NCBI GenBank assembly: GCA_008632985.1
Contig: QPGO01000003.1
Span: 558,001-622,000 of the forward strand
Direction: 5' to 3'
DNA length: 64,000 bases
Source: Psammoneis japonica
Taxonomy: Eukaryota
This document shows positions 1-38,530 of this stretch, piece by piece (position 1 is the stretch's first letter; every line of letters begins with the position of its first letter). A model generated the notes under the pieces. That model was not told the DNA's origin and did not search any database. It saw only the letters and a program-made list of their open reading frames with translations. Both the position numbers and the translations under genes were made by a program.

Positions 1-1420
1 AGTGTTGTTTTCTGTAGAAATCTGCCGTCTGACCCGCAGCACTCGCGCAGAACTTGTGCGAGTCGCTGCGGCAAATCCACGGAATTCAAATTGCAACGGC
101 GCCGTTTCAAAAACGCGACCAAAGTGCAGTGACCCATGAAATCAAAATGTGCCGGTACGTGCATGACGAGGAGCAGCAACTCTTCATTTCTTCTCCAAAT
201 GACGATTCACCTCTTGCTTTGGACGATCCAACGACGAGGCTCTCTCGCTGATTTGTGGGAGGCTTCCAAACAAGATGCACCTTGAATCGGCATCGAGAAT
301 GCATGGCATTCGGGGATTTGCCAATGGGCTGCAAACATTCGTGTGCACTTCCACGGCGCAAGTTCCACATGTTCAAAACTTCTCTGATTCCAGTGAGGCG
401 ACTCAAGAAATCTCTTCCATCTCGGTCTGTGGATCGTTTTCCTCCGATGAAGCGCAAATGGTGGCATCGCCGAAAGCATGGCATGTCAGAGGGGTGGCAC
501 TTCAACCAACGGTTGAGTTGGTCGATTGTAGTTTGAACAAGAATCGTCGCTTCTTCTCGCACACAATTTAAAGAAAACCCCGTTCACAAACGTGACACAG
601 ACGGAACAAGACGATTTGAGGCTGTCATTTGCAATGCAATTCTCTCTTTTGCCTTGGTGCTTCCTCCACTGATTGTGCTTCGTGTCACTTTTGTGCACAA
701 CAGTGGCTTTTGAACTCCGACCGGACAGCACCGCAGCAACAAAATGCTTTTTCCGCCATGCAGAAAAGAATCGCCAAACACATCAGAGCCATCATTGCTC
801 AGATGCCAAGACAACCACCCTCTCTCCATGCAATGTGGGTTAGAAATTGCCTCATCACAAAAGATTCACAACTGCGAACTATTCACATTCTCGTCAGCAG
901 GGTTTTTCACTCCCTGCTCGAATTGATGCAATGCGGTTTTCATGTTTCAGCGAGCCAATGGATGCAACACAGCTGCTGCAAAGCCAGCCAGCAAAAGGAC
1001 CACACATCCACGCAAGAGATTTGACAAAAGCGCGTGACGTTTGTTGTTTCAATGCACTTTTTCGCAGCACACGTTTCACTTTGAATGCTTTTCCATGACG
1101 TTGCTTCTTTCCATGAACAGCAACCTATGGTTCAAGGGATTGTCTGCACAATGACATGCTCCAGCGGTCGTTTTGTTGCCCTGTGCCGCCAGCGATGGTG
1201 GCACCATTGTGTTGCGCTTTCCAACAGACTCCAAGATAAGACATGTCCTTGTGTCTTGTGTCTTGTGCGTTCCGCTGTTCTGGGGGAAGTCTCCAGCCAG
1301 CTGCTGGCTGAAAAAAGTCTGCTCGTCAGTGCGTTTGGGGGTTTTGCAAGTACAATTTTTACGTGCGCTAAAGAAAACGAGTCTGTCCAGCGTTCACCAA
1401 AACCCCTTAACGCACAGATC
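1..1420. repeat. TpA-depleted degenerate repeat/TE-derived block (unclassified, runs off the window edge)
   Basis: Only 8 TA dinucleotides counted in nt 1-1320 while CG is still common. Overlapping Cys/His-rich spurious ORFs; no recognisable domain. Confidence 0.6.
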
Positions 1421-2050
1421 GACAGACTCTTTCAGTACAAATCCTACATAAAATTCTTCAGCCAGCAGCTGGCTGGAGACTTCCCCCAGTTCCCTGTTCC
1501 TCGTCTCGAAAGGCGGGTGTTCGGCAACCACGAACACCGAATTTTCAAAAAAAAAGATTGCCTCGCCTGCTCGCCGCCCGCCCGTTGACAGGCACCATCG
1601 TGACCGCCATTTTTTGTTCCCGGTTTCTACTTCTAGTAGGGCCCTACTGCTCTAGAGTAGAGAGTAGCTACTGTACTACTCTAGAGACTGTCTAGAGAGG
1701 TGCTGTTTACCCTAACCAGAAAGCTGCAGCAAAGAAAGGGGGGTAATCCTTGTTGAAAGTGATGATCATTGTCGAACAGGGAAAGAGACGCTGTTCTTCT
1801 CACAAGGAATCGTCAAACAATTATTAATTGAAATTCCGTTGCCGGATCGTCCAAACCATTCTGAATCAAACGCATAGGATGCACCTCTGAGCGTGACAAG
1901 CCAATCGAACGTTTTTGAAAATTGATCCTTGACAGAAAGGGTCGAGACATGAAAAAGATTCGTGTACACTCAATGGAAACACACTGAATTTTTTAAGAAC
2001 TCGGGTTATGGTGCAAAAAGCAACAGAGCATGAAAGCAAACATTTGCTCG

Positions 2051-3359
2051 CTACAGAAGCATGTTCAAAACGATGGGCACTCCCACTGTGAATATAAGCC
2101 AAGTCGACCACAAGCAGAAAGCTGCATATGCAGCGGAAGGCTCTTGCTCCTTTTCAAGGTAATAGACTACAATCTCACTGGTGGTTGGGAAACAATTGCA
2201 GGAGCTATTGTATGCGTTCTGCCCTCCAAAGGAATACACAGCCTTTTCGAACCCAACGGCGGCAAACCGAAAGCGATGACGCTCCAGAGTACCCACAGTA
2301 TGCCACGTTTCCGATTCAAACTCTTCCACTTCATCCACAAGGACCGATTGCTCCTCTGGAGGAAAAGCAGAGCTGTTGGTGCAGAAATCAGCCGGTCTTG
2401 TTTCACCTCCCAAGACGATTATCACTCCATTTGCAAACGATACACTTGCGCCGTCTCCACGTGCAGCCTTTAGGGGTTCCACGCTCTCCCACGTGTTTTG
2501 CTGGGTCCCATCTCCATCCACAGAATACCGCTCGACGGTGGACAGCGGTTTACAAAAGCCATTGGCATCAGTAAATCCACCAATCGTATACCAATACTGC
2601 AGCCCATCATCAAATGCAGACATGGCATCCCCACGAGCCGTGGCCATGGACGGGACTTGTTCAAAGTTAATTGTGCCGTTGGTTATAGTTTGATTGGAGT
2701 CAAAGCGAACACAGGTGGGGACAGCTGTATAATTCAACAGGTAACCGCCAGCAAAGTATGCATATTGATCAGTTCCGATTCCATCCAAGTCCGAGACTTC
2801 ATAATATGGCGGAAGCACTCCCACGGTCGACCACGTGCCTGTTGAAATATCATAAACCTTATTCAAAGAAACATAGCCCGTATCATGTGAGATGTGAGAA
2901 CATTTATTTCAAAAGTGACGTTTGTAACAACACATTCAATCATAACAATATAATATTGATACTTGCATCAATCTCGCTAATGATATTGTCATCTAAATCG
3001 CGGCCACCCGCGAGCCATAGCTTGTCTCCCACAATCGCTGCAGCGTGGCGATAACGACCACGTACAAGATCTGGCAAATCCACAAACGTTTCTGTTTTTG
3101 GATCAAACGAAAAAAGAGAATCTGAGAGAGACGTGCAAACAAACTGTCCCAGCGTTTCATTCAATGTATCGGCGCTGTTGCATCCACCGGCAATGTAAAC
3201 AAGCCCATCACTGCTTCCGACTGTGGCTGTGTGATCGGAAAGCCCTGTTGGGAGTCTGACGTCCAGAATCTTCCATTCAAGCGTCTCATCGACATCATGT
3301 GCATTACATGAGAGGACAAGTAGTACTGCAGCGGCAAGGCAAGTAGTAGCAATCCTCAT
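2051..3359 (-). CDS. Secreted/membrane-anchored Kelch-repeat beta-propeller protein (exons 3359-2967 and 2857-2051)
   Basis: N-terminal signal peptide; Kelch motifs (VYIAGG, RGRYRHAA..LWLAGG, YFAGG, YTIGG, IVLGG, YSFGG); C-terminal hydrophobic tail. The in-frame join gives ISEID|VYDISTGTWS across a GC-AG intron at 2858-2966. Confidence 0.85.
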
Positions 3360-16691: not shown

Positions 16692-19404
16692 ACCGTCTCA
16701 AGCGTTGCAGTGAGTTCACGAACATGTCCATCCCATCTACATTTGTAAATAGTAAAATCTTTTTTCATTTGCTGGATTCCGTTTCAAAACTTATTCTTAA
16801 CAGCAAAATGTTAGAAAGCATGGCCGGGATCATGGTGCCACCCACAGCAACACTGGATAAAGAAGCCTCAGAAAAAACATTCTTCACAAAAAATTTTGAG
16901 CACAGTCCGGCACCCTCAGGCTAGAGAAGGCATGCAAGGTTGCCAATCCGAGGCAAACACCAACTTGTGTTCTTTGTGCCACAGCACTCTGCCCTTGAAG
17001 CATTTTTTTTTTCCTCTTTGTTGACATCACAGTCGTGTGCAAAATGTGTGAGCAACTCATTGTTCATCATTGTTTGTGCCATCAGTCTGTTTCAACAAAC
17101 ATTTTCACTAGTTTGGAATGAGAGATCTTGGCACATTCCTGTGCAGCTTCATCTCCTTGAATTGAATTGGCTGTTCTCTCTCTTTGCACACCTGAAACAG
17201 GCCCAGAAGGGGTTCAGCGTGACTCCACAACACAGATCAACAAAAGTGGACCCAAACAACATTCCAGCATTTGGAGCCTGTCTCATGTGATTGGTGAAAG
17301 AGCACAAAACAATGCACTCCTGTGGCTCCATCATTGGAATGTTCTGGCAGATTGTGCACAGCTTTGAAGGGAAACACTTTTGAGCATCTGTCATGGCACA
17401 GCAATGACGGCAGTTGTCAATTTCTCTCAAAAGTGTGTGGGATGCACTCAAACTTTGTTGTGTGTGAAGTGCAAGTGGCAAAATGTAAAATGAACAAGAG
17501 GCCAGGCAGAGATGGATGGCTTCTCATTTGGCCAGAGATGCTCAACAAGCCACATCATTTTCCAAGCCCAGCCGGCATTCTTGTGCATGGTTCTTGCCAG
17601 CAGGCTGTGCCAAGGGGTTGACCTTGCCTCTCAAAGGGCTTCTGTGAAATGAACAGCTTGCCAACCTTGAACACAGCTCTCTTGCTCCAGCGACTGTTGC
17701 ATCATTGCTCATCACAAAACCATCATGGAGCCTGCTGATGGGTTCGCCACAAAATTGTGTCAACTTTGCTCCTTCACTTTTTGGCAACCACAGAAGCTGC
17801 CCCAGACAACAATTGCCACCTTGTCCAAATCTTCCACTGAATTGGAGTGCACTTCATGGATGTTGTTGAACAATCTCTTGGCACATGTGTCTGTGCCTTT
17901 GACCCTGCTGAGCCTGTCCAAGCCTTGACTTGGTTGCTTGACTTTGACAGCACATCCAAGAACAGGGGGTGTTGGCTTCAGGGCATCATCATGCCCTGGG
18001 GTTTGTGACAATGGCTGTTGCACTTTGTCTCCAAGTTCTTGTGGGACCCCCCAAAAATCTTCACATTCTTGAAAAAACATGGTGCCAAGCCACGCACAAC
18101 CACACCATCCTTTTTCCCAGTGCTTGCCTTCATGACTTGCAGGGGCAACAACTCTGATGCACCATGATGGTGGCAACTGCCACAGCTCCTTCAAAATTGA
18201 AGACAGGGTCAGCCATGAGATGGATCAAGACATTGAAAATGACATTGAAAAGAGACAAACTGCTGGCCTCTGCAGTCCAAGGTGGCAAGAAAAGTGCCCA
18301 CAGCTCCTCTTTGGTTCAGAGCACCTTGTTGCCTCCTTCCTTCTGTCTCCACCACATCCTTGTCACCTCATGCCTCTGTTTTGAGACACAGGTCTAACAA
18401 GCACTTGACTCTGCCAGCTGGCCCAGTTGTCTTCTTCTCCAGTTGTGTGTTCCATGTCACCTCACTCCATTGCCAACAACCTGCTCAGCCATCCAGCACT
18501 TGGTGGACCAAGTCAGGAAGAGGGCTCATCTTGGTCCAGATGCATCCAAGTGGTTGTTCCGGCAATCCATGTGCTGGGGGCAATTGGAGGAGCAGTGTGT
18601 GCCTTTCAGGTGGCAGGCAAGGCACCACATGGCACTGATGTTGGAGCACACCGGGGAGTGCAACCCCTTTCTGGGTGCAGCAGCACTTCACTTTGTGTGG
18701 GTGCACTCCAGGGTGGACAGTGGAGTTGTCTCCTGCCTCCCCAAGCTCTGCTTGGCAAAGTTGTCCAGCACTGGGTGTCATTCCCATCAAGTGTGGTGCC
18801 ATGGGGGGCACCACCAGCACTGGGCCCATGATGTGGTTGAGTGGCAGATGGCAAGCCACACTTCCATGAACTGCTGTTGCCTTGTGCTGTGATGCTGCCC
18901 CGGTGAAGGTCAGAGGCTGGTCAGTGTGCTCCTGATGGCAAAGCCAGTGCACCATCTCTGCTTGGATGCAGCAATGAATGTCCACAACAGATGAGGTGGA
19001 ATGTTGGCCCATTTTGGCCATGAGAGGTCCTCCTCAGCATGTGTGTCAAGGTCCATTTGCAATGCCCCCAAGTGACACAGCAAGGGGCAGTTGGGTCCCA
19101 GTGGTGCAGCTGCAATGACACACATGCCGCTCTTGTGTGAGCATCAGATGGCATCCAGCATGGTGGCTGCCTGCCTTGGCAGTGTCAGGTGCCTCAAGAG
19201 TGAGCATGTCTGCAAGGGCCGGGCAGCTCTTGCTGCCATGGATCTGGCAGCAGATGGCATTGGTGTGGGCATTTGCAAAGCTTGATCTCTGGCATGGCAA
19301 GTCCAAACAACAGCAGGCTCAGACCTTGGGTGATCAACCCACAGATCTGCTTGGACAGGGATTGTTGGCTGCTGGTGGGACAATGGGGTGCACTGGTGGT
19401 GGTG

Positions 19405-22400
19405 GCCTTCGATGCACGAGTCACACCATGGAGGCGCTTCGTTGCGTGATCACAAACAGTGATCCAACACATCTCGCCATTCAACCCAACATGGTCTTTG
19501 ATGCGCTCAGTGTTCTTGGAGTGGAGACCAGAAAAAGAAAAGTCTGTGGTGAGACCTTGGTGGGGTTGGGTGGCAGTCAAAGCAGCATTGGGTCCAGCAG
19601 GTTCCTTCATCTGTTTGGCCCGGACACATGTGGGGCAAGTGTCAAGGGGAGATGTGCCGTGTGCAAACTTGGGGACACCATCAACATGTTCGTGAGCGTG
19701 GCAAAGAAAGTGATCACTGGGGTGTCCAAGACGTTGATGCCACAAAAGGCATTCCGCGTCAGCCTTGAGGGATTGGATGGGAACATTCTTCTCGGCATGC
19801 TGCTCAAACGGGATGTCTTGATGTGCTCGGGGGATCAACTTCCTTTCCATGCAGAGAGCATCATGTTGGCGTTCACGACATGTTTCAATCATGCAGGCCG
19901 AGACCGCTTCACATTCATCCGCAAAGGAGGGGTCACTTGCCTTGAGGCACTCGATTGATGCGTTTGGCTCATCATGTGATTCTGGGAGAATGAGTGGGTG
20001 AGCACAACACTTGCCATTGATCAGTTTCCCATGAATGACAATGTCCTGACTCTTGCACAAACGATGCCGTGCAACAAACTTGCAAGCACCGAGATCATGG
20101 AACTTGAGGATGCAATCAACATTGCAGTCTGTGCGACGGGCACCATTCTGACGGAGCAGAAAGCACTCATCAACCAAGGTGGATTGGAGCTGTGGGTGGC
20201 AATGTGCACGAATCTCAACATGGCCATCGGGGTTCTCCGCAGGGATGCGAAGACATCCAAAGCCGACTGGGACAGCTTCATGTCCAAGAGCTGGATTAAC
20301 AGCAAGCGGGCATGGGGCGGAAGGAGCAAATGCTTGGCATCGATGCAGGAGATCACGATCTCCAGTGCAGGCAATGTTGGCACCAGTGTCAAGTTGAGCA
20401 CAGCGCTCATTCGGGGCAAACTTGACACCATTGACAGCGCAGGCAGTGTGGAGGAGATCTGGTGGATCCAATTCATCATCATGCAGTGAGCCAAGCGGGG
20501 CAATGCGGACAGAATTCACTGTGGCAAAACCGTCCTCAACAGCAATGTCGTCACAGGTAAGATCAATGAACTCGGCAAATTCACATTCCTCTAAATCTCT
20601 CCTCCCCTGTTCTAAAGAGTCGAGAACAGGATCAGTCTCCAATGTGCTGTCAGGGAGAATGGGATCATCATCAGGCAACTTGGTGGTGTCAGGAGAGACC
20701 TTCGAGTTGGGGGTGCAGTCCATGTCAGTCGTCGAAGAAAGAGGCAGCACAGTGGCAGATGACAAGACGGTGAGTCCCTCTTTCACAGTCATCCCGCTGA
20801 CATTGGTCTTGTCTCGGTGGGTGGAGAATGGGCTGCGTTGGAGATCCGAAACTAGCTGCGACGGCCCGACCGAAAATCCAGAGACTGGACACCAGCACTG
20901 GGCGGAGAATCAGATGGTCCGTGATGAGGCGGCAACAAACCTTGTGGTCCTTGAAATTCAGAGGCTCGCACAGCCGCTTCGCGCTTCAAGAATTGACAAA
21001 ACCGCACGTGGAAGCCCTTGATGTACGGGTTGTTGTTCAAGACAGGACACTCATGGAATGAGTGTTCTTCAGAACAAACAAGGCATGGTTTCTTGGAGGC
21101 CTCTGTGGGAGCAACCTTGAGTTTGTGCACCGAAGCGGAGCAAACATGATGAAGAAGACGATCTTCATCTGCAGAAGGTACGTCAAGGTCATTCAATTCA
21201 GCACAGAGGGAGTCAAAGGCATCCTCGGGGGAGTGATCGATGTCGGCAGCTTCTGGCAGCTCGTCCGCATCCTCTGCAATGGGAGGGACATCCGGGACAG
21301 TCAAGGAATTGACATCGGCAGTTGTGCGACGTGCATCCCCTGGGTGTCGATCCCATGTACGGTGTGGATTGCGAGGAGTCGTACGAGTTGCAAGAGATGG
21401 ACTGTCCGACTGACGAAGGAAGTCAGAAAGGGTCTCAACAATCTGTGCATCCGTGCACTTCTTGAGCACAGTGGGGGACTTCCTTTCGTCTCCAGCAGCA
21501 CGGGACAAGAACTTGGAGCATTTGGTGTTCTTGACAAAAACAGTCATCTCTCGAGAGTCATCCAACGTAGAGTCCGCATTAAAGACACAAGCACGCAGCT
21601 GTAGAAAATCCTTGAAACATGAGTGACAGTCCGTCAAGGACAGATTTCCTTGAATGGGGTAGGAATCTACCAACCCAGCAGCCTCGTCATCGAAAGCCGG
21701 GTGGTTCTCGCAGACAATTTGCTTGAGAGCCTTGTGGCCGTTGCCACAACATGAGGCAACAATCCGATGACACTTGCTGTTCTTGGGGAACATGTCCGAC
21801 TTGGAAAGGATCTTGGGAAGGGAACTTTGTGCTTCTTTACAATGAACATGCATTCGTTGGGGCAAGTCATCGTCTTTGCCATTGCCAATCTCAAAACCCT
21901 TCTCACCACCGTGGTCCTTGGTGAAGCACCACAAAGGATGCACGCAGTGTCCCGAGTCAAAGGAGTGACGTTGAAAATTTTGGTGCCATGCACGTGTCCC
22001 AGCAGGAGAATCGTCATGGCATGTTGGAGGTTCTCTGAATGGCATCTTCTGGTCGGGGGCCGAGCTCATGATAAACAGGGTGCCATCATTGAGAATGATG
22101 CGGTCAGACGCATCAACACAGTGGCGGAATCCATGGTCACAAGGGACCAGAGAGCTCTTCAGGGTGACGGCACCACTTTCTTTGCGGTCGTAGTGTGTGC
22201 AAACATCGGGAGGCAGGGTGTCAGGATTGAAGAGACACTTGGATGCTGTGGAAGTTGTAGGAGTTCCAGAGGTCTTGCCAGAGGCAGCAGAAGGCGGAGC
22301 GTGGCTCGACGCAAACTTGTCAAGGGCGGTGATCAAGTCATTCACACCAACTGTCACAGGTCCGGAACCAGTCGTAGATGATGGTGTGGGCTGTGGGTTC

Positions 22401-23287
22401 TGCAGGCAGGGTGTGATGGAGAACTCCTTTGAATCCTTGTAGTTCCACATCATGTTGGGGTCAATGTCAATGTGGTGTGCAGAGATGATGACGCATGTGA
22501 TTTGATCGTGGTTCCGGAGATTGGTCTTGATGATCAACAAGAGAGATGCGGGCATCATGTGGATCGCACGAGGCCTGGCAGAGTCAACAATTCTGAACGC
22601 AGCTTCATCCACAATCGTCTTGACAGGCTGCATGTCCGCAGGATGAACCGTGCAAGGTGGGAACGCCGTGTTGACAAGGTGATCTCGAAACACATCAACA
22701 AAATCTTTCTTCGGTTGAGCATGTTCTGGATTGTCAAAGAACGGGTCCAGATCAAATGTTGAATCCGCGTGTGTCTTGTTCAAGGTCGCATGGAAATGAG
22801 GTGTCGTTGCATGTTCTTGAAATTCACAACAGATCTCTGCAATGGACGTCGGAGCGGCCTTTGCAAGGTCGGGAGACGCCATGGTTTCACTTGGTGAGGG
22901 CATTTTTGGTCATGCACATGCAGAAATCTGGTGTGTTGCTACAATTGTGAAAAATGCCGGGAAAGTGAGAAAAAAATTGTTGTTGGAACAGATGATGAGG
23001 CTTGCTCGGTCGGCTCACAAAACAAACGAATCAAGGTGGAAAGCTTGGCGCAGAGTTTTGTGGCACAGCGCAGGGCCACAACCTGACAGAATGCCGAAGG
23101 TCAATGATGACAGAGGCATGAAAGACTCCCCAAGCACCAGGACTGTGATGACACGAGTGCCAGCAGATGAGAAAGTGAGAGGCAGATCTCAGAGAGATCT
23201 GCTCGTCTGTCCAAATGGTCCGGTCATCATCCGCGTGCAGTCTGTCCATCGCACGACAGGCAGACTGACAGGTGGCACAACTTGACA
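19405..23287 (-). mobile_element. Ty1/copia (CoDi-like) LTR retrotransposon, 3'-truncated: putative 5' LTR ~23037-23287, gag 20852-22903, protease/integrase ~19405-20792
   Basis: Gag zinc knuckle CLVCSEEHSFHEC; protease AQLDTGAN; pre-integrase LWHQRLGHPS...CPTC; integrase start DFSF. No RT or RNase H recognised downstream. LTR limits are tentative. Confidence 0.85.
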
Positions 23288-24599
23288 CTTTTACATTGAG
23301 CTTTTTTGCTTGGGCCGGGTGTCCAGCCCTCCCTGCAAACACAAGAAAACAGCAAAGGCACCCTTTGCAATGACAAGCACAGCAACTGAACTGTCCATGC
23401 CATCTCCTGTTCATCCTGGTTCTTCAGAAGAATGACCAAGGGAAATGTGAGACAACAATTTCCCATGGCAAATGATGGCAGCATGTTCAACATGCATGTG
23501 GGAACACAACAGGTTATGAGCAGTGCTTTGACACTTTGACTTCTTGAGGCCAGCAATGACGTCATCACATGTGCTGAGTTGTGTGTGTTCATGACAATTC
23601 CCACCCTGCAATGACCCTGATTTTTGAGATGCCTGGAACCATCAAGGGCGAGCTTTGAAATTTTTCAGCCATTTCCCTGCCAGGAAAAAGAGGGCACTTC
23701 TCTTTGTTTTTGAAAGCCCATTTTTCACTTGTGCACTCTGCAAACACCGTGGGATGAAAAATGACAAAAAAATCAAAAAGAATGGCCTGACAATTGTGCT
23801 GCAAACCAAAATGTGCAAAACCTTGCCCAAAGCAGTTTGGACTTTTTTGTGCAGCACATGATCAACAAAATGTAAGTGTGGCAGCTGCCCAGTGTGTGAG
23901 GCCCCACCTGGTGCTGGAAGGTGCCACAACTGCTGTGGGCATCATCATCTGGGGTGCAAACCAACTCCTTGTTGACTCTGGTGCTGCAAATGCCAGAGAC
24001 AAGGGATTTGCCCCCAACAAGGAGCTGAGTGGTGGTGGTGCACCCAGAGTCAATTGCAAGAATGTCCATGCACACACAATGCCAGCAACCAGTGCCACCA
24101 GCTCATTGCTGCAATGAATGTTCAGAGCCTGGTGGCTGGGAGAGAGTTGCAAACCTTCTTCAGACAGGTGCCCATGGGTGTGCAACAGCATTGCACAGTG
24201 CAATCAAAGGTGCAGTGAATGGCATCAGTTGGTGAGAAGCCAAAGCTGGCTGGGGCAAAGGGCCTCAAAGTTGGGATCTTGAGAGGCAGCTGAGTGAGCA
24301 CTCTGCAACTGCTGCAAAAGAAGCTGGAAGTCTGGTCAAGCTGTTGCTGCACAAACCCAAACATCCAGGTCAGTGGCTGACAATTGCAAACCCAAGTTTT
24401 GGGCAACAGAAACAAGACACAACCTTCAAGAGCACTCCCTGCACTTCTGGCCCATGCACTGCTCTCACAACAGCTGGGGGCTCCTTTTTTGTGTTTTGTG
24501 CTCAGGGTGCTGCTCTCTAATTTGCCAATGTTGTTCACAGAGCAGCCAAGAGCAGGCCAATGCAAGCACTGTCTCTTGAAGCAACACTTGAGCAAGTGG

Positions 24600-27500
24600 T
24601 GCCAGGAGCCAGAGCATCTGTTGTGTGCCTGCACCAAGAGCATCACACAACAACATCTTGTTGTGATGCTCTTGGCCCTTGCCAGAAACAAGTTTTTGCC
24701 TTTGACCTCTTGTGAAATCTGCCTTGACATCAAATGCCAAGTGACAGCTGGTCCCTTGACAACCTCTCTGGTTTGCTCCAGAGCACGTGCTTTTTTTCAA
24801 TCCACAATGATTGTTTGGCACCTGCCTCTGTTCACGCCAACAATGAAGGCATTGCCACTCCCCTTCATGCAACAACCTTTGCCATTGAAGTTGAACAGGA
24901 TGAGCACTGCACTGTGGGGAAAGCCTTGTCACATGCTTCCGACAAGCTTCCAACCAATGTGGTCATGGCAAAAACATGATGCCTTTCCCCCTTGGCCTTT
25001 TGCAATGTTCCTGTCAAAACCCAGGCTCAATGCAATGACACCACCTTTGTGGTTCCTCCATTGTGCACTTCTCCTGACATGATGTTCTGCTTCAAAAACA
25101 AGCTCAAGGCTTTGAAAGGAGTGCAAGAAATTTTTCTTCCCACCTTGGTCAACAGACGATGCAACATTCTGGTCAATCACACTGATTTCAGATCAGCCAG
25201 AGCTGCAATCTCCACATGCATTTTGAACTTAATCCCAAATCTCCTGAACAAATCCCAACCTTCTCCTCCCTTTCTGGATCACCCCCAAGAAGTTTCTGGT
25301 GTCCTTGAAGAACAATCGGACAAGAGCAAATCTGTCGTGTTGGCCAGCATCTGCAGTCTTGAATCCCTGACCTTTTTGGATGTTTCTCCCTTGACAGACA
25401 CCCAAGCTTCTGGTGCACATCATCCTCCTCCGCTGCCATCTCACCCTGGCAGAGGCTGTGCAGGGAGAGGCTCAGGTTGTGGTGCTCCCCAGGGCTCTTT
25501 GGTTCCTCCACAGATTTACACTCAGCTGTCCTCTTGTGCTTCATCAACTTTCGGCCATTCTGGATGTCCAGGCACAACTTCTCCCCAGTGTTCCTGTGCT
25601 CAAGCCACTCAGTCTGTCTTGAGCTTTTCTCTCACTTCAACACAAATGGCTGAGGTGCAACACACTTTGTCCAAGATGCAAGAGAAAAATGACAAGGCTT
25701 TAGAAGAGATCCGCCAATGGCACTCCCAGGACATGGAAGCATTGAACTCCATGTTTGCCAAACAACACACCCAAGACATGGCAGACTTGCAGTCACAGCA
25801 TTCCCAGCAACTGGCTGGTGTGCAGGCACAGATGGATCGCTCAGAGCTCCACCAGAAAACATCCAAACAACATGGAAATGCCAGATTGCTCTGGAGATCT
25901 TTGCAACAAGGAGAAGGATTTTTATGAAGGGGTTGGACTTTGCTGCCTCCACCCCACAAACAATCAGGCATCCTCTGGATGTCTCTCCATGTGCACGTTG
26001 TTGCTTGCTCTCACCCACATCTTTCACCACACATCTTGGTGCTGACAATTTGTTTCTCTTCCTGCATTCACTTTGATGCATTGCTCTAAGCCCCAGTCTT
26101 CTTCTCAGAGGAGCGCGGCCCACTCATGAGCATTGAAGTTTACTGCAACTGCTCTGCACAAGCCTGGCAGTCCATTTTAGATGGCAGACACTTCAACCCC
26201 CTGCAGAACGTCGCATTGATTTCTCTCACCTTTGAACAAATGAATTGATTGGTGATGATCTCAAACCAAAGCTTCCTCATCACACTGGACTGTGTGCCTT
26301 CAATGCCAACAGGTGTGAATTGGACAAAAGAGGTGGAGATGTTCTGGGCCATTGCCAGATTGCCAATGAGATTCAAGCTGATGCAGTTGGCATTTCTGAA
26401 GCATGCCTGGACACTGTTCAGCATGACGTTCTTTCACCTTGTTGGTCCACTGTTCAAAACATGCAAGTCATGGATGGAGCACATTCTCGTGCAGCTCAAC
26501 TGCTTTTGCAACTTGATGCAAGCCCAGAGGCACAGCTCTTTTCTTGGCAAACTCTATTTCTGCAAGATGTTGGAGTCAGGAATCAGACCCGCTGGGTTGC
26601 CAGTCCATCCAAGTCTTTGATGGATGCAATGGCTCACAAGTCATGTTTGTGTCGTGTTGTCATGTTTGTTCAAAGAACCAAAAGATTCCTGGTTGCACCA
26701 CTGCCTGTGCCCAGCAGGCATCATCATTGTGCCAACAAGGCCACCAAAACACAGATCCTTGGAAAGCTTTTTGCTTGGATTTATCTCGATTGCTCCAAGA
26801 TTTTCTCACAGGTCAGAATGGCAAGGTGATCCTCTTTGGAGATTTCAATGCTGACTTTGTGGTCAACACTGAATCTCTGGCATTGCTTTCACAAAGATTT
26901 AATTTGTCAGATGCACTCATCAAGAACCTGATGGGCAACATGGAATTTTCAACATGCACTTGAGGTTCAAAGTGATTAGACTGCACTCTTGCTGCCCCAG
27001 GCGCCCTGGCCACTGCTTGTTTCAGAGGCTGCGAGGCTTTTGGGTGTCATGTCACTTCTGATCACTGCACCTGCCACATGGATTTTGACACTTTGGCCCT
27101 TTTTGGAAACCCCGCTGTTGATCTCTTGAAAGCCAGTCATCAGGACATGCTGTCTTCCTTGAAACCCCAAGTGACAGCACACCTTGATGCCATTGGTCCA
27201 ATGCTTGCCAGCAGGGACATTCTGTCCAGATCAAGAGCACTTCTTGAACTCAACACTCCCAATCATGAGTTGGCAGAGCAATTGGATCAAGACCTTCTAC
27301 AATTTTCTTTGGCCGCTGCAAAGAAATGTCAAGCACACCGTGAACCAGAATGGTCCATCAAACTGGCACAGCTTTGATGCCGAGTTTGCATTTTGAGCAG
27401 AGTGATTTCCATGATGCGCACTCACATCAACCATGTCAGCCATGTTGGGAACATCCAAAATCAGATTGAGGGCTCATTTGTCATTCCTGAGACCTTTGCG

Positions 27501-30500
27501 AAATGTCAGGCTGCCCTTTGTTTGGCCCAGTCTGAATGCCAGAAGGTGGCTGCAGCTGGTGTCATGCACAGAGAATGGGAGATGGCAGAGAAAATGGCAG
27601 CCTTGGAGCTAGAAGGTGCAAAAGCTTCCAAGAGAAAAGCCACTGTCCTGTGCAACATGCGAAAAGCCAAAGAAATCAAGAAGCCATTCTGCAAGACAAA
27701 GTTCTGCAAGGCCAATTGCCACATGGGGACAAGCAGCACACAGGTGCCCTGCAACCCCTCTGTGAACCCCAAAGAGTGTGAAGAATGGGTTGCAATTGAT
27801 GCTCCCATTGATGTTGCCACTGCTCTTTGACTTTGCAATCAAAAACATTTGGGACAGGCCCACAGCACTCCCCCTGCTGTTCCCCCCTTGTTGGCAGATT
27901 TGGGTTGCGCAGGTGACACAATCTCTGCAGACCTCATTCTTGCTGGTGACTGTGACACAGATCAACTTGGTGAAGCTGCTTCTTGGTTTGTCCATCATCT
28001 CAAACGTTGCTCTCCAGTGTCTGTTTCTTCCTTCCTTGCTGCAGCAGACCTGGAAGGAAAATTAAAACCTGGACAGAGTCCACGTCCACCTCCATCAAGT
28101 CGGGTCTTCATTTGGGTCATTGGAAAGCCATGCATGCATCACACTCCCATTCTCAGGCCACTGCCCTGATGGTGACCCAACTGATGACTGCAAGCATTTG
28201 GATGCGGCACAACATGTCCTCACTCAAATGCGGTTGAAACTTTTAAACTGCGCTCTTTGGTGGGGATGCTCCTGCAACCAATGGAAAGATGTTGTTGATG
28301 TTGTGATCTTCAAGGAAGCTGGGAACAACAAGATCCACCAATTGTGTGTTGTCCACATCTACAAAGCTGACTTTCAGTTGATTTCTAGTGTCATGTGGCA
28401 TTCTCTCACACAGAACATGGAGCAACGCAAACTTTGCAATCCAGGGACATGCGGAACTTGTCCATTCTTGAATGCAAATGCTCCAGTGCACCTGGAGGAG
28501 CTGATGCTCGAATCAGCAGGGCATCCAGAAAAACTGCCATCCACAGCAACAATGATTGCACTTCTTGCTGCAACAGGAACATTCTGGCTCTGGCAGCTCT
28601 CAAGAGTTGCAGCAATGGCATGCCAAAAGCAGCAACCCAGACAGCAAACCAAACCCTGCAGCAGGCACGATGCTGGCTGAAGACTGCAATGAGATTGTCC
28701 AAATCATCATGCTCTCATTCTGCGCTGCTTCTCCAATTCATGGCACAGGCCAAGGTGGTGCGGCACAACTCCCCCTTTCATTGGAACCAAATCTGCAACA
28801 GCCTTTTCCAGATGTTCAACAAACATGCCCATGGCACAATTTTTGAGTTGCCCAACCATTTGGTGTCCATGAGAATTTGCAATTGCGGATGCATCAACAC
28901 AACACTTCGAAGCAGGTTGACAATTTCACTGCCTCCCTGCAACCTTTGGCATTGGACTTGGCCTTCAAAATGCAGGAGGACAACCAACTTTGGTGTGATC
29001 TGCTGAACACAGCTGGACATGAACTTGAACTCCCCAAATGCTCCTTTCACATCATCGAATGGCATTTCATCTATGATGGAGAGCCGCACCTGTGTGCATG
29101 CAATGACGAAGTTGGCATTGATGTCTCTTCCACAGATTGTTCCCACACACAATCCAGTGTTCAGCCATCTGCACACACCTCCCACAAGACCCTTGGACAC
29201 TGCAAGGCTCCTGTTGACACCCAGGAGACTCACTGCAAAGCACTCAAGACAAAGAGCAACAATGTCACACTGTTCCTGAGGTTGTGTCCTCTTGACAGGC
29301 ATGAGCAATGGACTCACTGCTTTGCTTGCTGTTTATCCAGCATGACTTGCAACCTTCTGAATGCACATTTTGCTCCAAAGGAACTGTCAGAGATTTAAAA
29401 GAAAGCCATGCGAGTTGTTTTTGCAAAATGTGGGTGCAGCCAAAACACCAAAAGGGATGTCCTTTATGGTCCTTGCTCATTGGGTGGCAGCAGCTTTGGG
29501 TCCTCAGACATTGAACAGGGTGTTGGTCAAGTTGTGCAATTCCTGTCTCATTGGCAAGGTGTTGGTCAGCCTTCTACATTGTCTTGTGTTGCTGTTTCTT
29601 GGGTCCAGTTTCATCTTGGCACTGGCACCAGTTTCCTGAAGGACACCCATTCCAAACTGCCTGACTCAGAGTCCAAGTGGTTTGTGTCTCTCCAAGCTTT
29701 CTTGTCCAGAATCAATGTGGGTTTCGAATTGGATGACTTTGGTGTGCTTCCTCTCCAATGGGACAATGGTCAATGTGTTGTGGACTTGGTCTTGGACTCT
29801 GGAGTTTTCTCCAACAGGGAGGTCTGATGGGTGAATTGTTGTCGCTTGCATCTCAATGTTCTCACAGTCTCTGACATTGCTTTGCCAGATGGCCATTTTC
29901 TTGACCAACAAAAGTTCATCGGCCAGCACTCCATCCTCAGCAGCACATCTAAGTTGAATCCAGTGGAGCAGGCCCTCCCGTCTTCTTGAGCATGGAAACA
30001 ATGGAAATTTTCTGTGGTTTGTTGTGCAGTGGTGACACCATGGAGTTGCACAACCCGTTGGGCTCTTGGGCAGTTCTTCCAATGAGATGCGAGTGCAATT
30101 CCCAGTGCACTGGCAAGCCTGCCACAGATCACTCACACATTCAATCTCCCAAGGGTTTTCAAAATTGTCCTCTCAGCCAAGGCATGCCAGTGAAATTGGT
30201 CCTCTCAATGTCATCCCAGACTTGTCTCCTTCAGCATCCCCAGTTGCGGTCGGCACCATTGAAGACAGCAGATGGCACATTCAATCTCGTGGCACCCCAT
30301 TTGATCTTTCCCCCACACTGCCTGTTCCATCAAATTTCCAAGATTGGTTGGTGTCTCTTCCCTCTTGGGAATCGTCCTTGTTTGCGGAAGTTTCTCTTCA
30401 CGCTTTGTTTGGAAATTGCTGAGTGCTTGTGCCTTCACCATGCTGCAGCAGCAAGTGACGGGTCTGTTGTTGGCTTTAATGCGGCTTTCAGGTGGACTCT

Positions 30501-31950
30501 AAATGTCAATGGCATCATGTTGGTGGACTGGGCCAGTCCAGTTTTTGGTTGCCGCCCTTCTTCACACCGCGCCAAAGCATGCACATGTGCTCTCCTTTCT
30601 TCAATTTGTCCTCAGAGTTGTGGAACATTGTCAAACAGCCTTCACTTTGGGCATGGCCTTGCACTGCAACAACTCAGCCATGGCAAGGAACATTCCAAAT
30701 TTACAGACCCCTCTCCCTGGTCCCAATGAAGACAACCCTTCCCAAGCTGTCAACTGCCACCACTGTTTTCACGTCACCAACACCATGTTGGTCAACTGGG
30801 ACACAGTGAATGAAATCTTTCACTTGGTTGCTGGCCCAGCTGAAGCACCAATGTGCACTCAAGTTGAAGTGCATTGGATCAAGGGACACCAGGACAACAA
30901 GTTTCTCTGTGACAGCTCATCTCTTCCTGCACAGATGAACATCCATGCTGACCAAATTGCTGGTCTGTGTCAAGGAAAATTTCCCGGCGATGCATCAATT
31001 GCTCCTTGCATGCCACACTGTTCAGCCAATCTCATTGTCTGGGGATCATTGGCACATTCCAATTTCAAGCCTGTTCTCCAATGTGAAGCTTTGAGTCCTG
31101 CCTTGGTGAAACACATGAAGGAGAAGCATCACTGGACCAGTGAGGTTTTCCAACTCATGGATTGGCCCGTTCATTCCAAACTTGTGTCTTGCAACATCCA
31201 CAGGTGAGCAAGCACTGTCAAGCTGGTTCAAGACTTGCTTCCTGCCAACAAGATTGTTCACAGGTGCAACACCATTCAACCCAATTGTTGCTTTTACTGT
31301 CAACACCCAATGGAGGACAGGGATCACATTCTCTGGTGCCCACACAATGAAGCATGGAGACCTTTCTTCAAGGATTGCGCAAGAAATGTGACAACATTCA
31401 CACATCTCCTCCCATGTGTGATTTCCTGATTGGTGCTTTGGAGTCATGGTTCAGCAAAAGTGTCATTTACGTGGATGAACTTCATCATGGCATGTTGGAA
31501 ACATTTCACATGCAAGAGCAGATTGGCTGGAGACACTGCTGTTCAATGGTCACTTTTCCTCCTGTTGGAATGAGGTGCACCTTGTTCACTTGAAGATGGT
31601 TGCAACTTTTGACTGCGATGCCTCTAGAGTTGACTGCTGGGCTGCAACTGTTGGCAGTTACATGTGGAACCAGTGGCGGGAATTGTGGGGCCAACATGAT
31701 GATGCAATCCATGGTCATGATTCAGAGTCCAGCAAATCAGTGCAGCATTGGGACACCAAGGCAGAGGTCAAGGCTGTGTGCTCTTGGTCTGGCAATCACT
31801 TGGCCAAGGACCAAGCAGAACTTTTTGATTCCATTGAGGAGCACCTCACTTGTTCTGTTCACAGGCTCCAAAACTGGTTGTTGGCTGTTGTTCAACCCAT
31901 GTTTAAATCCAGCATTTGCGAGGCAAAACATTTGGCATTGTGAGGAACAC
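24600..31950 (+). mobile_element. Non-LTR retrotransposon (LINE, Ambal-like with RNase H), decayed
   Basis: ORF1 remnant with coiled coil (24992-25927). APE endonuclease motifs (ADAVGISE, ILFGDFNAD, GSK*LDC, SDH); RT (IHGTGQG); RNase H (ASDGSV, SSHRA, HWIKGHQD, MNIHADQIA); C-terminal C..C......DHILWC. Many stops and frameshifts. Confidence 0.85.
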
Positions 31951-32299
31951 GCACAATTGCCAGTTGCTTTGGTGTGGCATCACCTGCTGGTGATGCTGTT
32001 TCAGGCTGATCGCCACATGCCCCTGCTGCACATCAGGTGTGCTGGGGGTGTGGGTTAGCTTGTTGCCAGAGTTGCAGGGCAGAAGCACAGCAGCACCTTA
32101 AAAACAGATTTCAGGTTTTGTTTTGGGACACCATGTCTTCCAACATGGTGGCCAGATCCCTGCACTGTGCACAAAATTTGCACATGATGTTCCTCTCATC
32201 CATGAGAGGGTTCTCCCACACACTTGTTGCACTGCCTGGCTCATTGAGCACATTTTGGGTGTTCCACACAGCTGCCAAGGACTGCAAGGAACAAAGGGA

Positions 32300-35200
32300 A
32301 AGAGAAGGCTGATGAGTGGGGCTTCATGCATGTTGGCTGGCTGGCCAGAAGGGACCCACTCCTGCTGGAACCAAAAAAACTAGATCTGCTGCCTTGCACA
32401 GCTGTTTCTGCCACTTGGGGGTCATCAATCTTGAGTGCAGAAAGATGTGGAAGGAGATCTGATGTTTGATGTGAGCCATTCAGACAAGTTTCTCTAATGC
32501 CACCCCATTGCTGCCATGGGTGGTGGTGCCCACTGCCAGGTCCCTGACTTGAACTCTGGCATCTCAATGGCCTCAAATTTGGGGCAATCCCATCCGGCAA
32601 TGTCACGACCCTTCTGAAGCCAATTGAAGGGGGGTGAGGAGTTTGGGGCCAGGTGAGCCTGCCCACAAACAAATCCACCAAAATAATTTGGGAGTGGCTG
32701 CAAGTCATTGCTCCAAGGTGCAAAGGCATGAAAGAAAGCATCTTTGCTCCAACACTTGTGACACCTTCAGAAAGGACCCCACAAGACACTCCATCAGGCA
32801 GTCCCTTCTTGGGCTGTCATGCGGCCTCCTGAGACGTGTGCAAGGTGAAAAACAAAGCCACATTTGGCCTCAAAATTTTGCAGGCAAACAACCTGTTCAC
32901 AGAAGCATTGGGCTGGATGAAGTGCCCTTGCACACTGCAACTTCTAAGATGGAATTGTCAGTGACAAAATGCAGAGTGGCTCCTTTCAACTCTCCCTTGT
33001 CCCCAAGCTTCTCAATGGCATCAACAGTGTCAGACAACTCACTCCAATTTGATGAGTTCTCCAACTTGTCTTCACCCCACATGCCCACATGGAAGAGGAC
33101 AGATGCATCTTGGGGTCTCAACAGAAAGCAAGGACTGGGATGCATGCCCATGAACAAACAGGTCCATTGCTCCTCCAGCCTGGGAACACGTTCCTTCCCA
33201 TCACCGGATGCTTCTTTTGGACCTTCTCTGCCATTCAAGAAATCTCAGGTGCAGCAACCCAGATGTGTTGACGTCTCCAGTTCCAAGGTGGCACCCCTTT
33301 GACAAAGATGGGGGCTCCATTCCTGGCACAAAGCTGCTGTTCCTTGTTGGCCCAATGCCATGCCAGAAAAGAAGGGAGGGCCCAAGGTCCCAGTTCCACC
33401 ATGTGCTCCCCAAAACCTTTTTCACCACCCCCTGTTGATGGCCTTTGCCACTCCCGTGACTGCAGATTCAGCAAGGTGACCCATTGTGTGCCACACTGAC
33501 ACCTGAGACACATCAAAAACAAATGCAAAGCACAAAGCCTCCACCACTGCAAAGCCAGAGAGCACAGAGCTGGCAAGATGTTCCCAAAAGAAGGGAACAA
33601 AAGAGCAACACACTTGTCCTAAAGCCAGCATGGAGGCACTGCCTCATCATCCTTTGCCACCTTGGCAACAACCAAAGACACATCAATCCACAAGTGTGGT
33701 GGGTGCTGCTGGAGGGTGGGCAACCAGGTGCCCAAGCAAGTTGAAAAGGCACCAGACACTGGGGCAGCCACGGGTGCTGGCACTCCCACCAAGGAGGCTG
33801 GAGCTGGACCCTCTGAATTGGTGACAGAGATGACCGCCTCCACCGGGATTGACAAGATGTGCAATGGGACCGCAATGGCCCCATGTGACCCTTGTGCTCC
33901 AATGCCTCCAAAATGTGACCCAAGCAGAATTGCAACAGGAAATCCCATGCAGCAAGAATTTCATTCAGAGAAAGAGCACAGGAAACCCATCCAGCAGGAG
34001 ACCAACAAGACTGGTGCCTTGCCAGGTGGGCAAGATTCCACAGATGCAAAAGATCACTCTCAACACAAGCCTCACTCAGAAGCCACTCCTGCTGCTGCTG
34101 AAGCACCAACCAATTTACAATCAACAATGTGCCCAACAGACTGGTGCAAGCCCCTTGCAAACAGAGGCACCGGGGTGTGCTGCCAGAACACCAAGGTCCA
34201 AAAAGAGGCAACCCCACCAACTTTAGCATGTGACACTCCAAAATGTTGAAGATGCCCCAGATCCCCTCAGGCCACATGGGACACAAAGGGTGCAACTGCC
34301 CAAACAACTCAAGAAAAGAGGCCAGACCTGACACCAAAGCAACCTCCACCATTGTGATGGTCTGGTGCATGGCTGGCCATGAAATCTGGCTTGATTCAGT
34401 CCTGGGTTGAGACAAGAAGGTTTTGAGAACCGGCTTGCTGCATGGATGTGAGTCAGACTCATCTAAAAACAAATGGATGGATGGATGGCCACTCTGGCTG
34501 CCAGTCACAAGAAGAGAAGCCATGCAGGGGGGAGGGGGCAAAGCAACAACCAGAGAAGAGCATGTGAAAGAGAAGGGTTGTTGTCCCTGAATGACATGCC
34601 TTGGGTCAGGGAGGCCATCAAATGACAAATCTGACTCAAGCTCCAACTCTGAGTCACCAACCAACCCGTTTGACAGTCACTTCTTCTTGCTCTCCAGAAG
34701 TGTCTTGATCCATTTGGACATTTCCTTGAGCTTGTTCTGAAACTTGGCAAGCTCCACATGGGCTGCATCACCCCTGGCCTGAGCCAACTTTGCTTTGGAA
34801 CTTGCACATTTCCAGCTTTCTCAGTTGGCTTTTTGACCAATGCCTGGAGGTCAGCAACCACCTCAAACCCCAAATTTGTTGCCAAAAATTTAACATGCTT
34901 CAATGCCACAGATGGGTGGCCAGCAAAACCATGAGTGGTGCACTCCACCATGACATCTTGAGCACAAGAACTGCCCACAAGATCTTGCTGCCTGCATCAT
35001 CAGGGTTGTTCCCTTTGACAGTGATGGCAAATGCTCCCAAGTGGGCCTTGTGAACATCCTCAAAGACCCAGTGAGCTGATGTTGTGGTGAGAAACTAAGA
35101 TGTTTTGTCCAAGAACTTGCTCAACATCTTGAGAGACTGGCAAGTTGAGTCCACAAACTGAGTCAACGCATGCAGAAAAGTTGCTGTGACTTTGACAAGG

Positions 35201-37000: not shown

Positions 37001-38199
37001 ACTCCAGTTGAATGGCCAAATTGAAGAATGCATCATTGTCAATGCCACTGGAGGCAAAGAAACCCAGCATGACAGAGGAGAGGAGAGCAAAAAGAAAAAG
37101 AGTGCTTTTCCAAGCTGCAGTGTGATCCAGTCACAGCGACCAGTTTTCCTGTTCCAACAAAGCTGGAAAAGTGAGAGAAAGTAAAAACCAAAGTTTGACC
37201 AGTCACAGTCAAAGAAACAACCATGAACGGTCTTCTTGGATCAGAGGTGCCCTCCTCTGAAATGGAGCCAAAACTGAAACCAATGCTCAAACAAGGGGTG
37301 CACACATGCCAGAGGCATGACATCTCCATCTAAACTTGGGTGCAAAGAGGTTGGAAAAATGCAGCAACAAACTTCATCATGCTGCAAACTGCTGAACAAT
37401 TGTGCAATTCATGTGCCCAAAGGGTGACTCTTGTTGCTTTGGGCACAAAATTCAAGCTTTGTTCATGCAGAGACTGTAGAAAATGCACCACTGGCATTTG
37501 AGAATGTCCAATGATTTGTGCAGATCATGCAGCACAGCACCACAGAGGTCATTTCATGCAACTGCAATGAGATTTTCAATGCCATGTGCTGTGTAGAATG
37601 GACATCTGCGTGAAGGAAGAATGTTGCTTTGGGCAATGATGTTCAACCTTCATGCACGTGAATTTTGCAATTGTTCAGCAATTCACAGCAAGTTGAGTGA
37701 GAGGGTTCAGAGAAGCAATTGGGTGACTCTTGCATGAGCAAAGTCATTGCAAACTCAATGTAACACACATCCTTGGAATCCCAATGACACAAGGATGTTG
37801 TGTTGATGAAGATGTGTTTGTGAAATCCAATGGTTGAAAAGAGTGTGGGAGTTTTCATCATGATTGCACGCAAGTCATTTCCATTGATTTGTGCAGCAAC
37901 ACTTGCACATTTTCTCAGAATGTGCATTCTGTGAAAGGGACCTGGAATCTGCACATTTCCAATTTACCTGTCTCATGTCATGCTGCAGGCCCTGGCTGCC
38001 AGTGCAGCATCCCCCACAGCTTGCTTGCTGTTGCTGTCTTTCTTGTTTGTTTGCAGCAAGTGGCAGAACTTGGAACCATGATTGTGATGATGGGTTGGAT
38101 GGAATGGCTTTGCCAGGCAAATGTGAAAGCCTTGTCATCTGGAAAATGTGTTTGCTCTTGTTCAGGATTCACACTCTCTTGTTGAGAATCCTGTGTTCT

Positions 38200-38530
38200 T
38201 CTCAATTTCTTGACAACTGTCAACAACACCCCCACGGCAATTGTTGGAACCTTCCAAGCAGGATTCAATGCATGATGGAATTTACACTTGTTCTGCACAC
38301 ATTCTTGACAATTTTACATTCCCACACATTTCAACATTTCCTGTGTTCTTAACAACTGCTTGTCAATCATGCACAATTGACAATTGTTTCAACTTTCCAA
38401 GCAGGATTTAATGCTCAATGGATTTTTTTACACTTGTTCTGCACAAATTCTTGACAATTCCATGTTCCTGCGCATTTCAACATTAATTCTGCATCTGTCC
38501 ACAATTAAACTGACCTTCCAAGCAGGAAAT
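38200..38530. repeat. Degenerate tandem repeat, ~125-140 bp unit, 2-3 copies
   Basis: TTCCAAGCAGGA recurs near 38252, 38394 and 38516; TACACTTGTTCTGCACA.ATTCTTGACAATT occurs twice. Confidence 0.7.

What the first reader, a model, noticed from the sequence alone, without database searches (positions are those of the whole stretch)
1..1420. TpA loss without CpG loss: the two decay processes are separable
Seen: only 8 TA in nt 1-1320, yet CG remains frequent (e.g. ACTCGCGCAG, CGGCGCCG, AACGCGACC). Inference: TA removal is not a by-product of CpG deamination and appears to act earlier or faster.
Basis: partly seen in the sequence, partly recalled or inferred. Interest (0 to 1): 0.75.

Follow-up and report, generated by a model that had tools for sequence, protein, structure and literature searches.

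The report
TA erased before CG in diatom
In this diatom a TA-specific mutator rewrites TA to CA or TG several times faster than CG decays in the same silenced DNA, and here it has hit the transcribed leader of a duplicated host gene while leaving its CGs almost untouched.

Summary
Observation confirmed: 8 TA in nt 1-1320 (86 expected), with CG o/e 0.87, the value that TA-to-CA/TG conversion alone would give. The stretch is single-copy in the assembly. It is the 5' exon of a tandem-duplicated Myb gene in a diatom, interrupted by a recent MITE. TA loss runs ahead of CG loss. In LTR copies under 1% transversions, 67 of 204 TA survive against 122 of 152 CG (about 5-fold). Between two alleles of the Myb gene, 21 of 34 listed differences are TA versus CA/TG and 1 is at CG. 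The two losses are nested, not independent: 0 of 96 CG-poor windows keep their TA. Hits are TA-only, prefer TAT/TAC over TAG over TAA, fall on both strands without coordination, and ignore distance to CG. It works like the TpA hypermutation reported in Bigelowiella natans (bioRxiv 2026); six searches found no diatom report. The enzyme is unknown; a DNA adenine deaminase is my best guess. This scan noted the TA loss before on other DNA of this genome.

The parts
1..1279 (-). TA-stripped, CG-intact tract; 5' part of the first exon (long leader, no open frame into the gene) of Myb paralog B, whose ATG lies about 110 nt upstream of the window
   Evidence: 8 TA, 68 CG; single copy by DNA search; record 13 of run X2 covers window -306..1203 on the minus strand and is joined to Myb B exons across CT..AC gaps; no Pfam, Atlas, homolog or Rfam hit
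1280..1489 (.). MITE with 36-bp terminal inverted repeats (1280-1315 / 1454-1489); recent insertion that still holds 7 TA; probably on one allele only
   Evidence: TIR 97%; about 40 places scored, two copies 99% identical; an X1 contig at about half depth joins across window 1204-1516
1490..1628 (.). continuation of the TA-stripped tract beyond the MITE
   Evidence: 0 TA, 14 CG in 139 nt
1629..1720 (.). TA-rich, CG-free repeated motif at which the tract ends; a similar motif lies at the other end of the tract about 3.5 kb upstream of the window
   Evidence: 13 TA, 0 CG in 92 nt; sequence; X1 joints between the two motifs
2051..2908 (-). neighbouring Kelch-repeat gene with ordinary TA; internal control
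   Evidence: Pfam Kelch_1; TA o/e 0.5-0.8 over 2001-3000
19194..22909 (-). Copia-type retrotransposon with long frames: TA almost gone, CG partly kept (intermediate stage)
   Evidence: gag_pre-integrs; TA 0.09, CG 0.61; 30 family matches with TA 0.02-0.27 and CG 0.27-0.74
24000..47000 (.). block with both TA and CG gone (end stage), read as old repeats
   Evidence: TA 0.06, CG 0.14, CA 1.79; no Pfam hit in the 7 longest frames tested there

Best explanation
Two different mutational processes act on the same silenced domains at different speeds. SHOWN: (1) a TA-specific process turns TA into TG or CA, site by site and on either strand, with 3'-base preference T>=C>G>>A after the mutated A. It removes about two thirds of TA before transversions reach 1%. 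(2) CG decays to TG/CA about 4-5 times more slowly in young copies and keeps falling with age. Nt 1-1279 are an early-stage product: the leader of a duplicated Myb gene that has lost about 80-85% of its TA and no measurable CG. The two alleles of that gene were hit independently and unequally. INFERRED: (a) the CG loss is deamination of 5-methylcytosine laid on transposons by DNMT5-type enzymes; (b) the TA loss is enzymatic A-to-inosine deamination of DNA by a TadA/ADAT-family enzyme brought to silenced chromatin; (c) it serves genome defence and has spread here into a host duplicate. My odds: two processes with TA first 0.85; adenine deaminase as the agent about 0.5.
For: Six LTR pairs, identical at insertion: 68 TA|CA-or-TG, 33 CA|TG, 38 CG|CA-or-TG, with 21 TA and 72 CG shared, and 25 transversions in 2362 columns. 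The pair nearest the finding shows 16 TA, 5 double and 1 CG difference. Against the least-mutated copy, TA kept / CG kept by transversion class: 67/204 vs 122/152; 16/92 vs 46/72; 4/58 vs 16/50; 5/81 vs 13/66; TA survival is below CG survival in 18 of 19 copies. T>C per base is 148/454 in TA against 12/533, 6/429 and 11/590 in TC, TG and TT; C>T is 32/340 in CG against 2/232, 4/426 and 5/429 elsewhere. MITE family: 43 of 179 TA and 19 of 210 CG changed. Windows: 147 of 379 have TA<0.2, 21 of these keep CG>=0.7, and 0 of 96 CG<0.4 windows have TA>=0.4. Alleles of Myb B: of 34 listed rows, 21 are TA vs CA/TG, 6 form three CA|TG doubles, 1 is CG, 6 are other. Residual TA by 4-mer fits a product of two strand terms (A 0.70, G 0.35, C 0.11, T 0.055) better than an equilibrium model. 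No strand coordination: 54 of 104 neighbours alike, null 52-53. An unguided engineered TadA leaves scattered A-to-G changes at TA genome-wide (PMC13225742, passages). Diatom transposons are CG-methylated by DNMT5a (PMC9998398, passages).
Against: No enzyme is identified; ADAT2- and TadA-like frames are present but are housekeeping genes, so their presence proves nothing. Sequence alone cannot tell whether the A or the opposite T is the modified base. Methylation was not measured. Myb B does show a mild CG excess loss against Myb A (23 of 89 vs 11 of 70), so the gene body is not wholly free of CG decay. LTR copies scored against one reference copy share ancestry and are not independent (the pair counts are). 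Only 40 of 166 variant rows were shown, chosen by support, and none lies inside nt 1-1203. There the evidence is 63 unlisted differences in one X2 record, at least about 33 of them C>T or G>A by subtraction, while the X1 contig over most of that stretch differs at only 6 places. The assembly is not one pure haplotype (one TA site is in X1 but not in X2). X1 and X2 are one sample and may be the source of the assembly.
Confidence: 0.72

Rival explanations
1. Same pattern, different chemistry: thymine in RTA is modified (for example oxidised towards 5-formyluracil) and mispairs with G, giving T>C. The TAY preference is the same thing as RTA read from the other strand.
For: The data are symmetric between A and T as the target. 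Mutagenic thymine oxidation products and thymine modification in dinoflagellate repeats are recalled from memory, not from a call.
Against: No Tet_JBP match in the genome, but the control did not ring either, so that search is uninformative. The TA motif matches a known adenine-deaminase footprint.
Confidence: 0.2
2. Separation in space, not time, at this locus: the TA mutator covers a wider domain than CG methylation, so the Myb leader is edited but never methylated and would not lose CG however long one waits.
For: The TA:CG contrast is far larger between the Myb alleles (21 plus 3 doubles to 1 in listed rows, with 144 CG available) than in LTRs (about 5-fold). The gene is transcribed. CG-kept windows often lie at block edges.
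Against: Within one LTR family the same sequence passes from TA-lost/CG-kept to both lost as transversions rise. Myb B has a mild CG excess loss against Myb A. This rival is compatible with the best explanation for transposons.
Confidence: 0.35
3. By-product of CpG deamination: T:G mismatches from 5mC trigger long-patch repair by an error-prone polymerase (Pol eta type), which restores CG but mutates nearby A:T pairs.
For: TA loss and CG loss share domains; correct repair would keep CG, so CG retention is expected under this model.
Against: AA>AG (TT>CT) is 11 of 590 against 148 of 454 for TA, and TAA is the most resistant context, unlike the WA motif recalled for Pol eta. Neighbouring hits are not strand-coordinated. 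Surviving TA are no further from CG than CA/TG are (p 0.29), and per-site loss does not depend on distance to CG (rho -0.06).
Confidence: 0.07
4. No process: intrinsically low TA in a conserved coding sequence, or a sequencing artefact of modified bases.
For: Several frames over 100 codons overlap the segment.
Against: Loss of TA removes TAA/TAG stops, so long frames are expected. No Pfam hit for 5 of 5 frames, no usable Atlas hit for 1, no homolog for 1. DNA contigs carry both alleles at about half depth, linked to non-TA differences, and the spliced run also carries derived CA/TG states.
Confidence: 0.02

Closest known systems
TpA hypermutation of integrated viral DNA in Bigelowiella natans (Mettrop et al., bioRxiv 10.64898/2026.01.13.699255; abstract, introduction, results, discussion and conclusion read; term search)
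   Same: T>C / A>G transitions only at TpA, giving CpA/TpG; confined to domains; long-term TpA depletion with CpA+TpG excess; transposon-type sequences among the targets; ADAT-type deaminase proposed but not shown.
   Different: That paper concerns a rhizarian alga and never mentions diatoms or CpG (0 occurrences). Here the host is a diatom, about 39% of sampled windows are affected (147 of 379), depletion is near complete, the order against CG decay is measured, a 3'-base preference and lack of strand coordination are measured, and a transcribed host-gene duplicate is hit on both alleles. No de novo rate is available here.
CpG decay of methylated transposons (5mC deamination; DNMT5a-dependent CG methylation of diatom transposons, PMC9998398, passages)
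   Same: CG>TG/CA about 10 times other C>T changes in young LTR copies, rising with age.
   Different: It accounts only for the slower, second loss; it is not measurable in nt 1-1278 and cannot remove TA.
Repeat-induced point mutation (RIP) of ascomycetes
   Same: Dinucleotide-specific transition hypermutation of repeats that spills into neighbouring or duplicated genes. Several cytosine-methyltransferase frames occur in this genome.
   Different: Opposite polarity (RIP makes TA from CA). Being repeated is not enough here: LTRs and MITEs next to genes keep their TA, and the single-copy leader is hit.
Off-target footprint of engineered TadA (ABE8e; PMC13225742, passages)
   Same: Scattered A-to-G / T-to-C changes at TA sites in genomic DNA.
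   Different: Engineered enzyme, genome-wide rather than domain-limited; a resemblance of motif only.

Membership tests
B. natans-type TpA hypermutation | transitions confined to TpA, giving CpA/TpG | tested here: met
   148/454 in TA against 1.4-2.3% in other T contexts; LTR pairs; alleles
B. natans-type TpA hypermutation | clustered domains of TpA depletion with CpA+TpG excess | tested here: met
B. natans-type TpA hypermutation | targets foreign or mobile DNA | tested here: inconclusive
   retrotransposons and MITEs are hit, but so is a host Myb duplicate; viral inserts were not looked for
B. natans-type TpA hypermutation | de novo rate about 1000-fold above background, active in only some lines | not testable with these tools
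   needs mutation-accumulation lines; unequal alleles are only a hint
B. natans-type TpA hypermutation | ADAT2-type deaminase as the agent (proposed, not shown, in the preprint) | tested here: inconclusive
   9 deaminase-family matches; of 5 read, one is ADAT2-like and one TadA-like by motif (labels from recall)
RIP | C>T at CpA, producing TpA excess | tested here: not met
   CA>TA 5 of 429; TA is depleted
RIP | duplication alone triggers mutation of both copies | tested here: not met
   gene-adjacent LTRs keep 18-26 TA while partners keep 4-8; MITEs in genic flanks mostly keep 5-8 TA
RIP | needs a RID/DNMT4 enzyme and a sexual stage | not testable with these tools
   DNA-methylase frames are present; not placed on a tree
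5mC-driven CpG decay | CG>TG/CA far above other C>T | tested here: met
   in LTR copies 32/340 against about 1%; not seen in nt 1-1278 itself
5mC-driven CpG decay | 5-methylcytosine at the decaying sites | not testable with these tools
   no methylation data
Pol eta-type A:T mutagenesis | WA motif (both TA and AA) in strand-coordinated clusters (motif recalled) | tested here: not met
   AA>AG 11/590; 54/104 neighbours alike vs null 52-53
ADAR editing fixed by reverse transcription | sense-strand A>G with UAG preference (PMC10661471, passages), retroelements only | tested here: not met
   63 CA to 53 TG after insertion, TAG less favoured than TAT/TAC; MITEs and a host gene are hit

The most novel reading that the evidence does not exclude
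Diatoms run a chromatin-guided DNA adenine editor as the first and fastest arm of genome defence, acting ahead of and independently of CG methylation decay. It is active now, works allele by allele, reaches into host-gene duplicates where it destroys splice sites and stop codons, and is shared with rhizarians as an ancient SAR system: the A-to-G counterpart of fungal RIP.
Probability: 0.35. Interest if true: 0.9.

Novelty: new variant of a known kind. Interest (0 to 1): 0.72.

Why it matters
It gives a second lineage, and a near-saturated example, for a TA-specific mutator reported once, in a 2026 preprint. It adds what that report lacked: the order against CG decay, a 4-base motif (TAT/TAC > TAG >> TAA) that can be matched to candidate enzymes, and a heterozygous host locus where the process can be followed. 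In practice it distorts annotation and dating. Loss of TAA/TAG creates long spurious frames, and LTR pairs that look 9% diverged carry under 1% transversions, so LTR ages from raw identity are inflated several-fold. A natural A-to-G DNA editor would also be of interest for base editing.

Tried and rejected
Homology of the leader to the leader of Myb A: global score 73.8 against a shuffled maximum of 71.3, not significant. tblastx and blastn of nt 1-1278 against the loci then held and the rest of the window: one marginal tblastx hit at E 0.01, no blastn hit. Protein searches of leader frames: 0 of 5 in Pfam, no usable Atlas hit for 1, no homolog for 1; three of the five frames were tested only in Pfam. 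Rfam on 1-1800: 0. Exact look-up of 3 window proteins: 0 of 3 found. Tet_JBP search: no match, but the control did not ring. A suspected catalytically altered DNA methylase (L143) has an intact PC motif. MITE as the seed of the domain: rejected, since it keeps 7 TA while both flanks are stripped. Processive single-strand editing: not supported. No run is on record as RNA ('no RNA holder listed'); X2 is read as RNA-derived only from its CT..AC joints. The genome sample stayed at 38 stretches of 10 kb on large contigs, so small contigs are not represented. A P. tricornutum mutation-accumulation paper (PMC6604790, passages) reports a GC-to-AT bias and does not mention TpA.

Full report
OBSERVATION. 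The count is exact: 8 TA in nt 1-1320 against 85.9 expected, with 68 CG (o/e 0.87) and raised CA and TG. Against the genic baseline of this genome (TA o/e 0.58 +/- 0.12 and CG 1.00 +/- 0.13 in 197 windows with TA>=0.4) the deficit has P = 6e-14. A simulation that only converts TA to CA/TG gives CG o/e 0.87 +/- 0.11, so the segment shows no measurable CG loss. The tract extends from about 3 kb upstream of the window to nt 1628.

WHAT THE SEGMENT IS. The genome is eukaryotic, and all four named organisms among the 120 listed hits of a window protein are diatoms (names recognised as diatoms from recall). Nt 1-1278 are single-copy in the assembly. They lie directly 5' of a Myb gene on the minus strand (Myb B), a tandem paralog 76% identical over 1230 nt to Myb A about 4.7 kb further upstream. 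Run X2 is labelled 'DNA?' but holds spliced forms with CT..AC ends; one record covers window -306..1203 and is joined to the next Myb B exons. A stop lies just before the first ATG, and the frames in the segment have no family or homolog, so I read it as a long leader. Nt 1280-1489 are a MITE. It keeps 7 TA and is 99% identical to two other copies, so it probably came after most of the TA loss. An X1 contig at about half depth skips window 1204-1516, which suggests that it sits on one allele.

TA IS CONVERTED, NOT INTRINSICALLY RARE. Of 34 TA in Myb A, 8 are kept in B and 19 read CA or TG; of 13 TA in B, 8 are kept in A. X1 shows two alleles of Myb B at about half depth each, and X2 carries the other letters. 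Of the 34 listed rows in the gene, 18 have TA where the assembly has CA/TG, 3 the reverse, 6 form three CA|TG doubles, 1 is a CG site and 6 are other. The assembly holds 27 TA and 144 CG in that stretch. One change turns the 3' splice AG of an intron into GG on the X2 allele; X2 records cover that intron, whereas its counterpart in Myb A is spliced. Limits: 40 of 166 rows were shown; none lies in nt 1-1203, where one X2 record has 63 unlisted differences (at least about 33 C>T or G>A by subtraction from the totals) while the X1 contig over most of it differs at 6 places. Both runs come from one sample, possibly the source of the assembly, and contigs drop rare variants, so allele-biased expression is only suggested.

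ORDER OF THE TWO LOSSES. An LTR element 8-15 kb upstream has LTRs that differ at 16 TA sites, 5 double sites and 1 CG site, with 17 CG shared and 3 transversions. Over six LTR pairs the counts are 68 TA|CA-or-TG, 33 CA|TG, 38 CG|CA-or-TG, 21 TA shared, 72 CG shared. Scored against the least-mutated real copy (20 of 30 fetched loci used; the ten weakest matches left out), TA and CG kept are 67/204 and 122/152 below 1% transversions, 16/92 and 46/72 at 1-2.5%, 4/58 and 16/50 at 2.5-5%, 5/81 and 13/66 above 5%. The log-loss ratio is about 5 in the youngest class and falls as TA saturates. These copies share ancestry, so the pair counts are the cleaner test. MITE copies agree (43/179 TA, 19/210 CG). 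In 30 matches to a Copia segment TA o/e never exceeds 0.27 while CG spans 0.27-0.74. In 379 of 380 one-kb windows from 38 stretches (one dropped for N), 147 have TA<0.2, 21 of those keep CG>=0.7, and none of 96 windows with CG<0.4 has TA>=0.4. The path is L-shaped: TA first, CG later, in the same domains. LTR ends that face genes keep their TA (18-26 against 4-8 in their partners), so chromatin domain rather than copy number sets the target.

SIGNATURE. T>C per base is 33% in TA and 1.4-2.3% in TC, TG, TT; C>T is 9.4% in CG and about 1% elsewhere. Residual TA in end-stage DNA depends on the base after the A on each strand: TTAA 0.49, CTAG 0.13, GTAC 0.012, ATAT 0.003 of normal. The six mixed contexts fit the product of the strand terms, for example A-and-C 0.086 observed, 0.077 predicted, 0.023 under an equilibrium model. 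Post-insertion hits are 63 CA to 53 TG and are not strand-coordinated (54 of 104, p 0.38-0.43). Surviving TA are not further from CG, and per-site loss does not track distance to CG. CG decay has another context order, TCGA lowest and GCGC highest, partly confounded by neighbouring TA conversions.

MECHANISM. Shown: two signatures, two rates, one compartment. Inferred: CG loss is 5mC deamination, since diatom transposons are CG-methylated through DNMT5a (PMC9998398, passages). TA loss is most simply A-to-inosine deamination of DNA by a TadA/ADAT-type enzyme acting one site at a time. An engineered TadA leaves this footprint (PMC13225742, passages), and the B. natans authors propose the same. 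The genome has such genes, but they are housekeeping. A modified thymine would give identical sequence data and stays open. Collateral repair of 5mC mismatches is not excluded by CG retention alone, but fails three tests here. At this locus a wider editing domain without methylation could explain the intact CG as well as youth does.

COMPARISON AND NOVELTY. It works like the TpA hypermutation of Bigelowiella natans (bioRxiv 10.64898/2026.01.13.699255; parts 1-3 of 5 read; supplements not seen, and its Table S2 bears on the motif comparison). That text has no occurrence of 'diatom' or 'CpG'. Two defining features are met, the rate cannot be tested and the enzyme is unknown in both, so membership is likely but unproven. 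It is not RIP. Six literature searches (listings only) returned no report in diatoms; the library lacks most subscription journals. This scan has noted the TA loss on other pieces of this genome. A word search for allele-level notes and a look-up near this place returned nothing.

VERDICT. New variant of a kind reported once. Interest 0.72.

Noticed in passing
window 1629-1720 and L031 6430-6520: A TA-rich, CG-free repeated motif lies at both ends of the TA-stripped Myb B tract and keeps its TA; it could be a boundary or promoter element. X1 depth there reaches about 530, so it is a dispersed repeat.
   Followed up: partly
L147, L148, L149, L153 (contigs C301, C297): Copies of a cytosine-methyltransferase gene are themselves TA-stripped with CG kept (TA 0.07-0.11, CG 0.66-0.74), some with stops; related copies elsewhere have normal TA, one next to a weak chromodomain hit.
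   Followed up: partly
L155 1-990 (-): A deaminase-family domain continues in frame into a region that looks like a 2-oxoglutarate dioxygenase (label from recall, not checked).
   Followed up: no
L103 5996 (about 1 kb upstream of the window): A TA-to-TG change removes a 3' splice AG of Myb B on the X2 allele; the last exon of Myb B is frame-broken in the assembly.
   Followed up: partly
window 8255-11719 (-): Two more Myb paralogs; the upstream part of the second (11001-12000) is TA-poor with CG kept (TA 0.16-0.31, CG about 1), next to the element at 12-15 kb.
   Followed up: no
window 12741-15038: Element with about 480-nt inverted arms, 77% alike, in a block with TA nearly absent.
   Followed up: partly
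L035-L047: LTR pairs are 82-92% identical but most carry 0-3 transversions in about 400 nt, so dating by raw LTR identity would overstate their age.
   Followed up: yes
L002/L003, L100/L101, L050/L051 and C41/C317: Near-identical pairs on different contigs suggest that both haplotypes are assembled in places; such pairs could give phased allele comparisons.
   Followed up: no
window 3763-5054, 5697-5949, 55754-56257: Three more short elements with terminal inverted repeats in genic DNA, with ordinary TA and CG.
   Followed up: no
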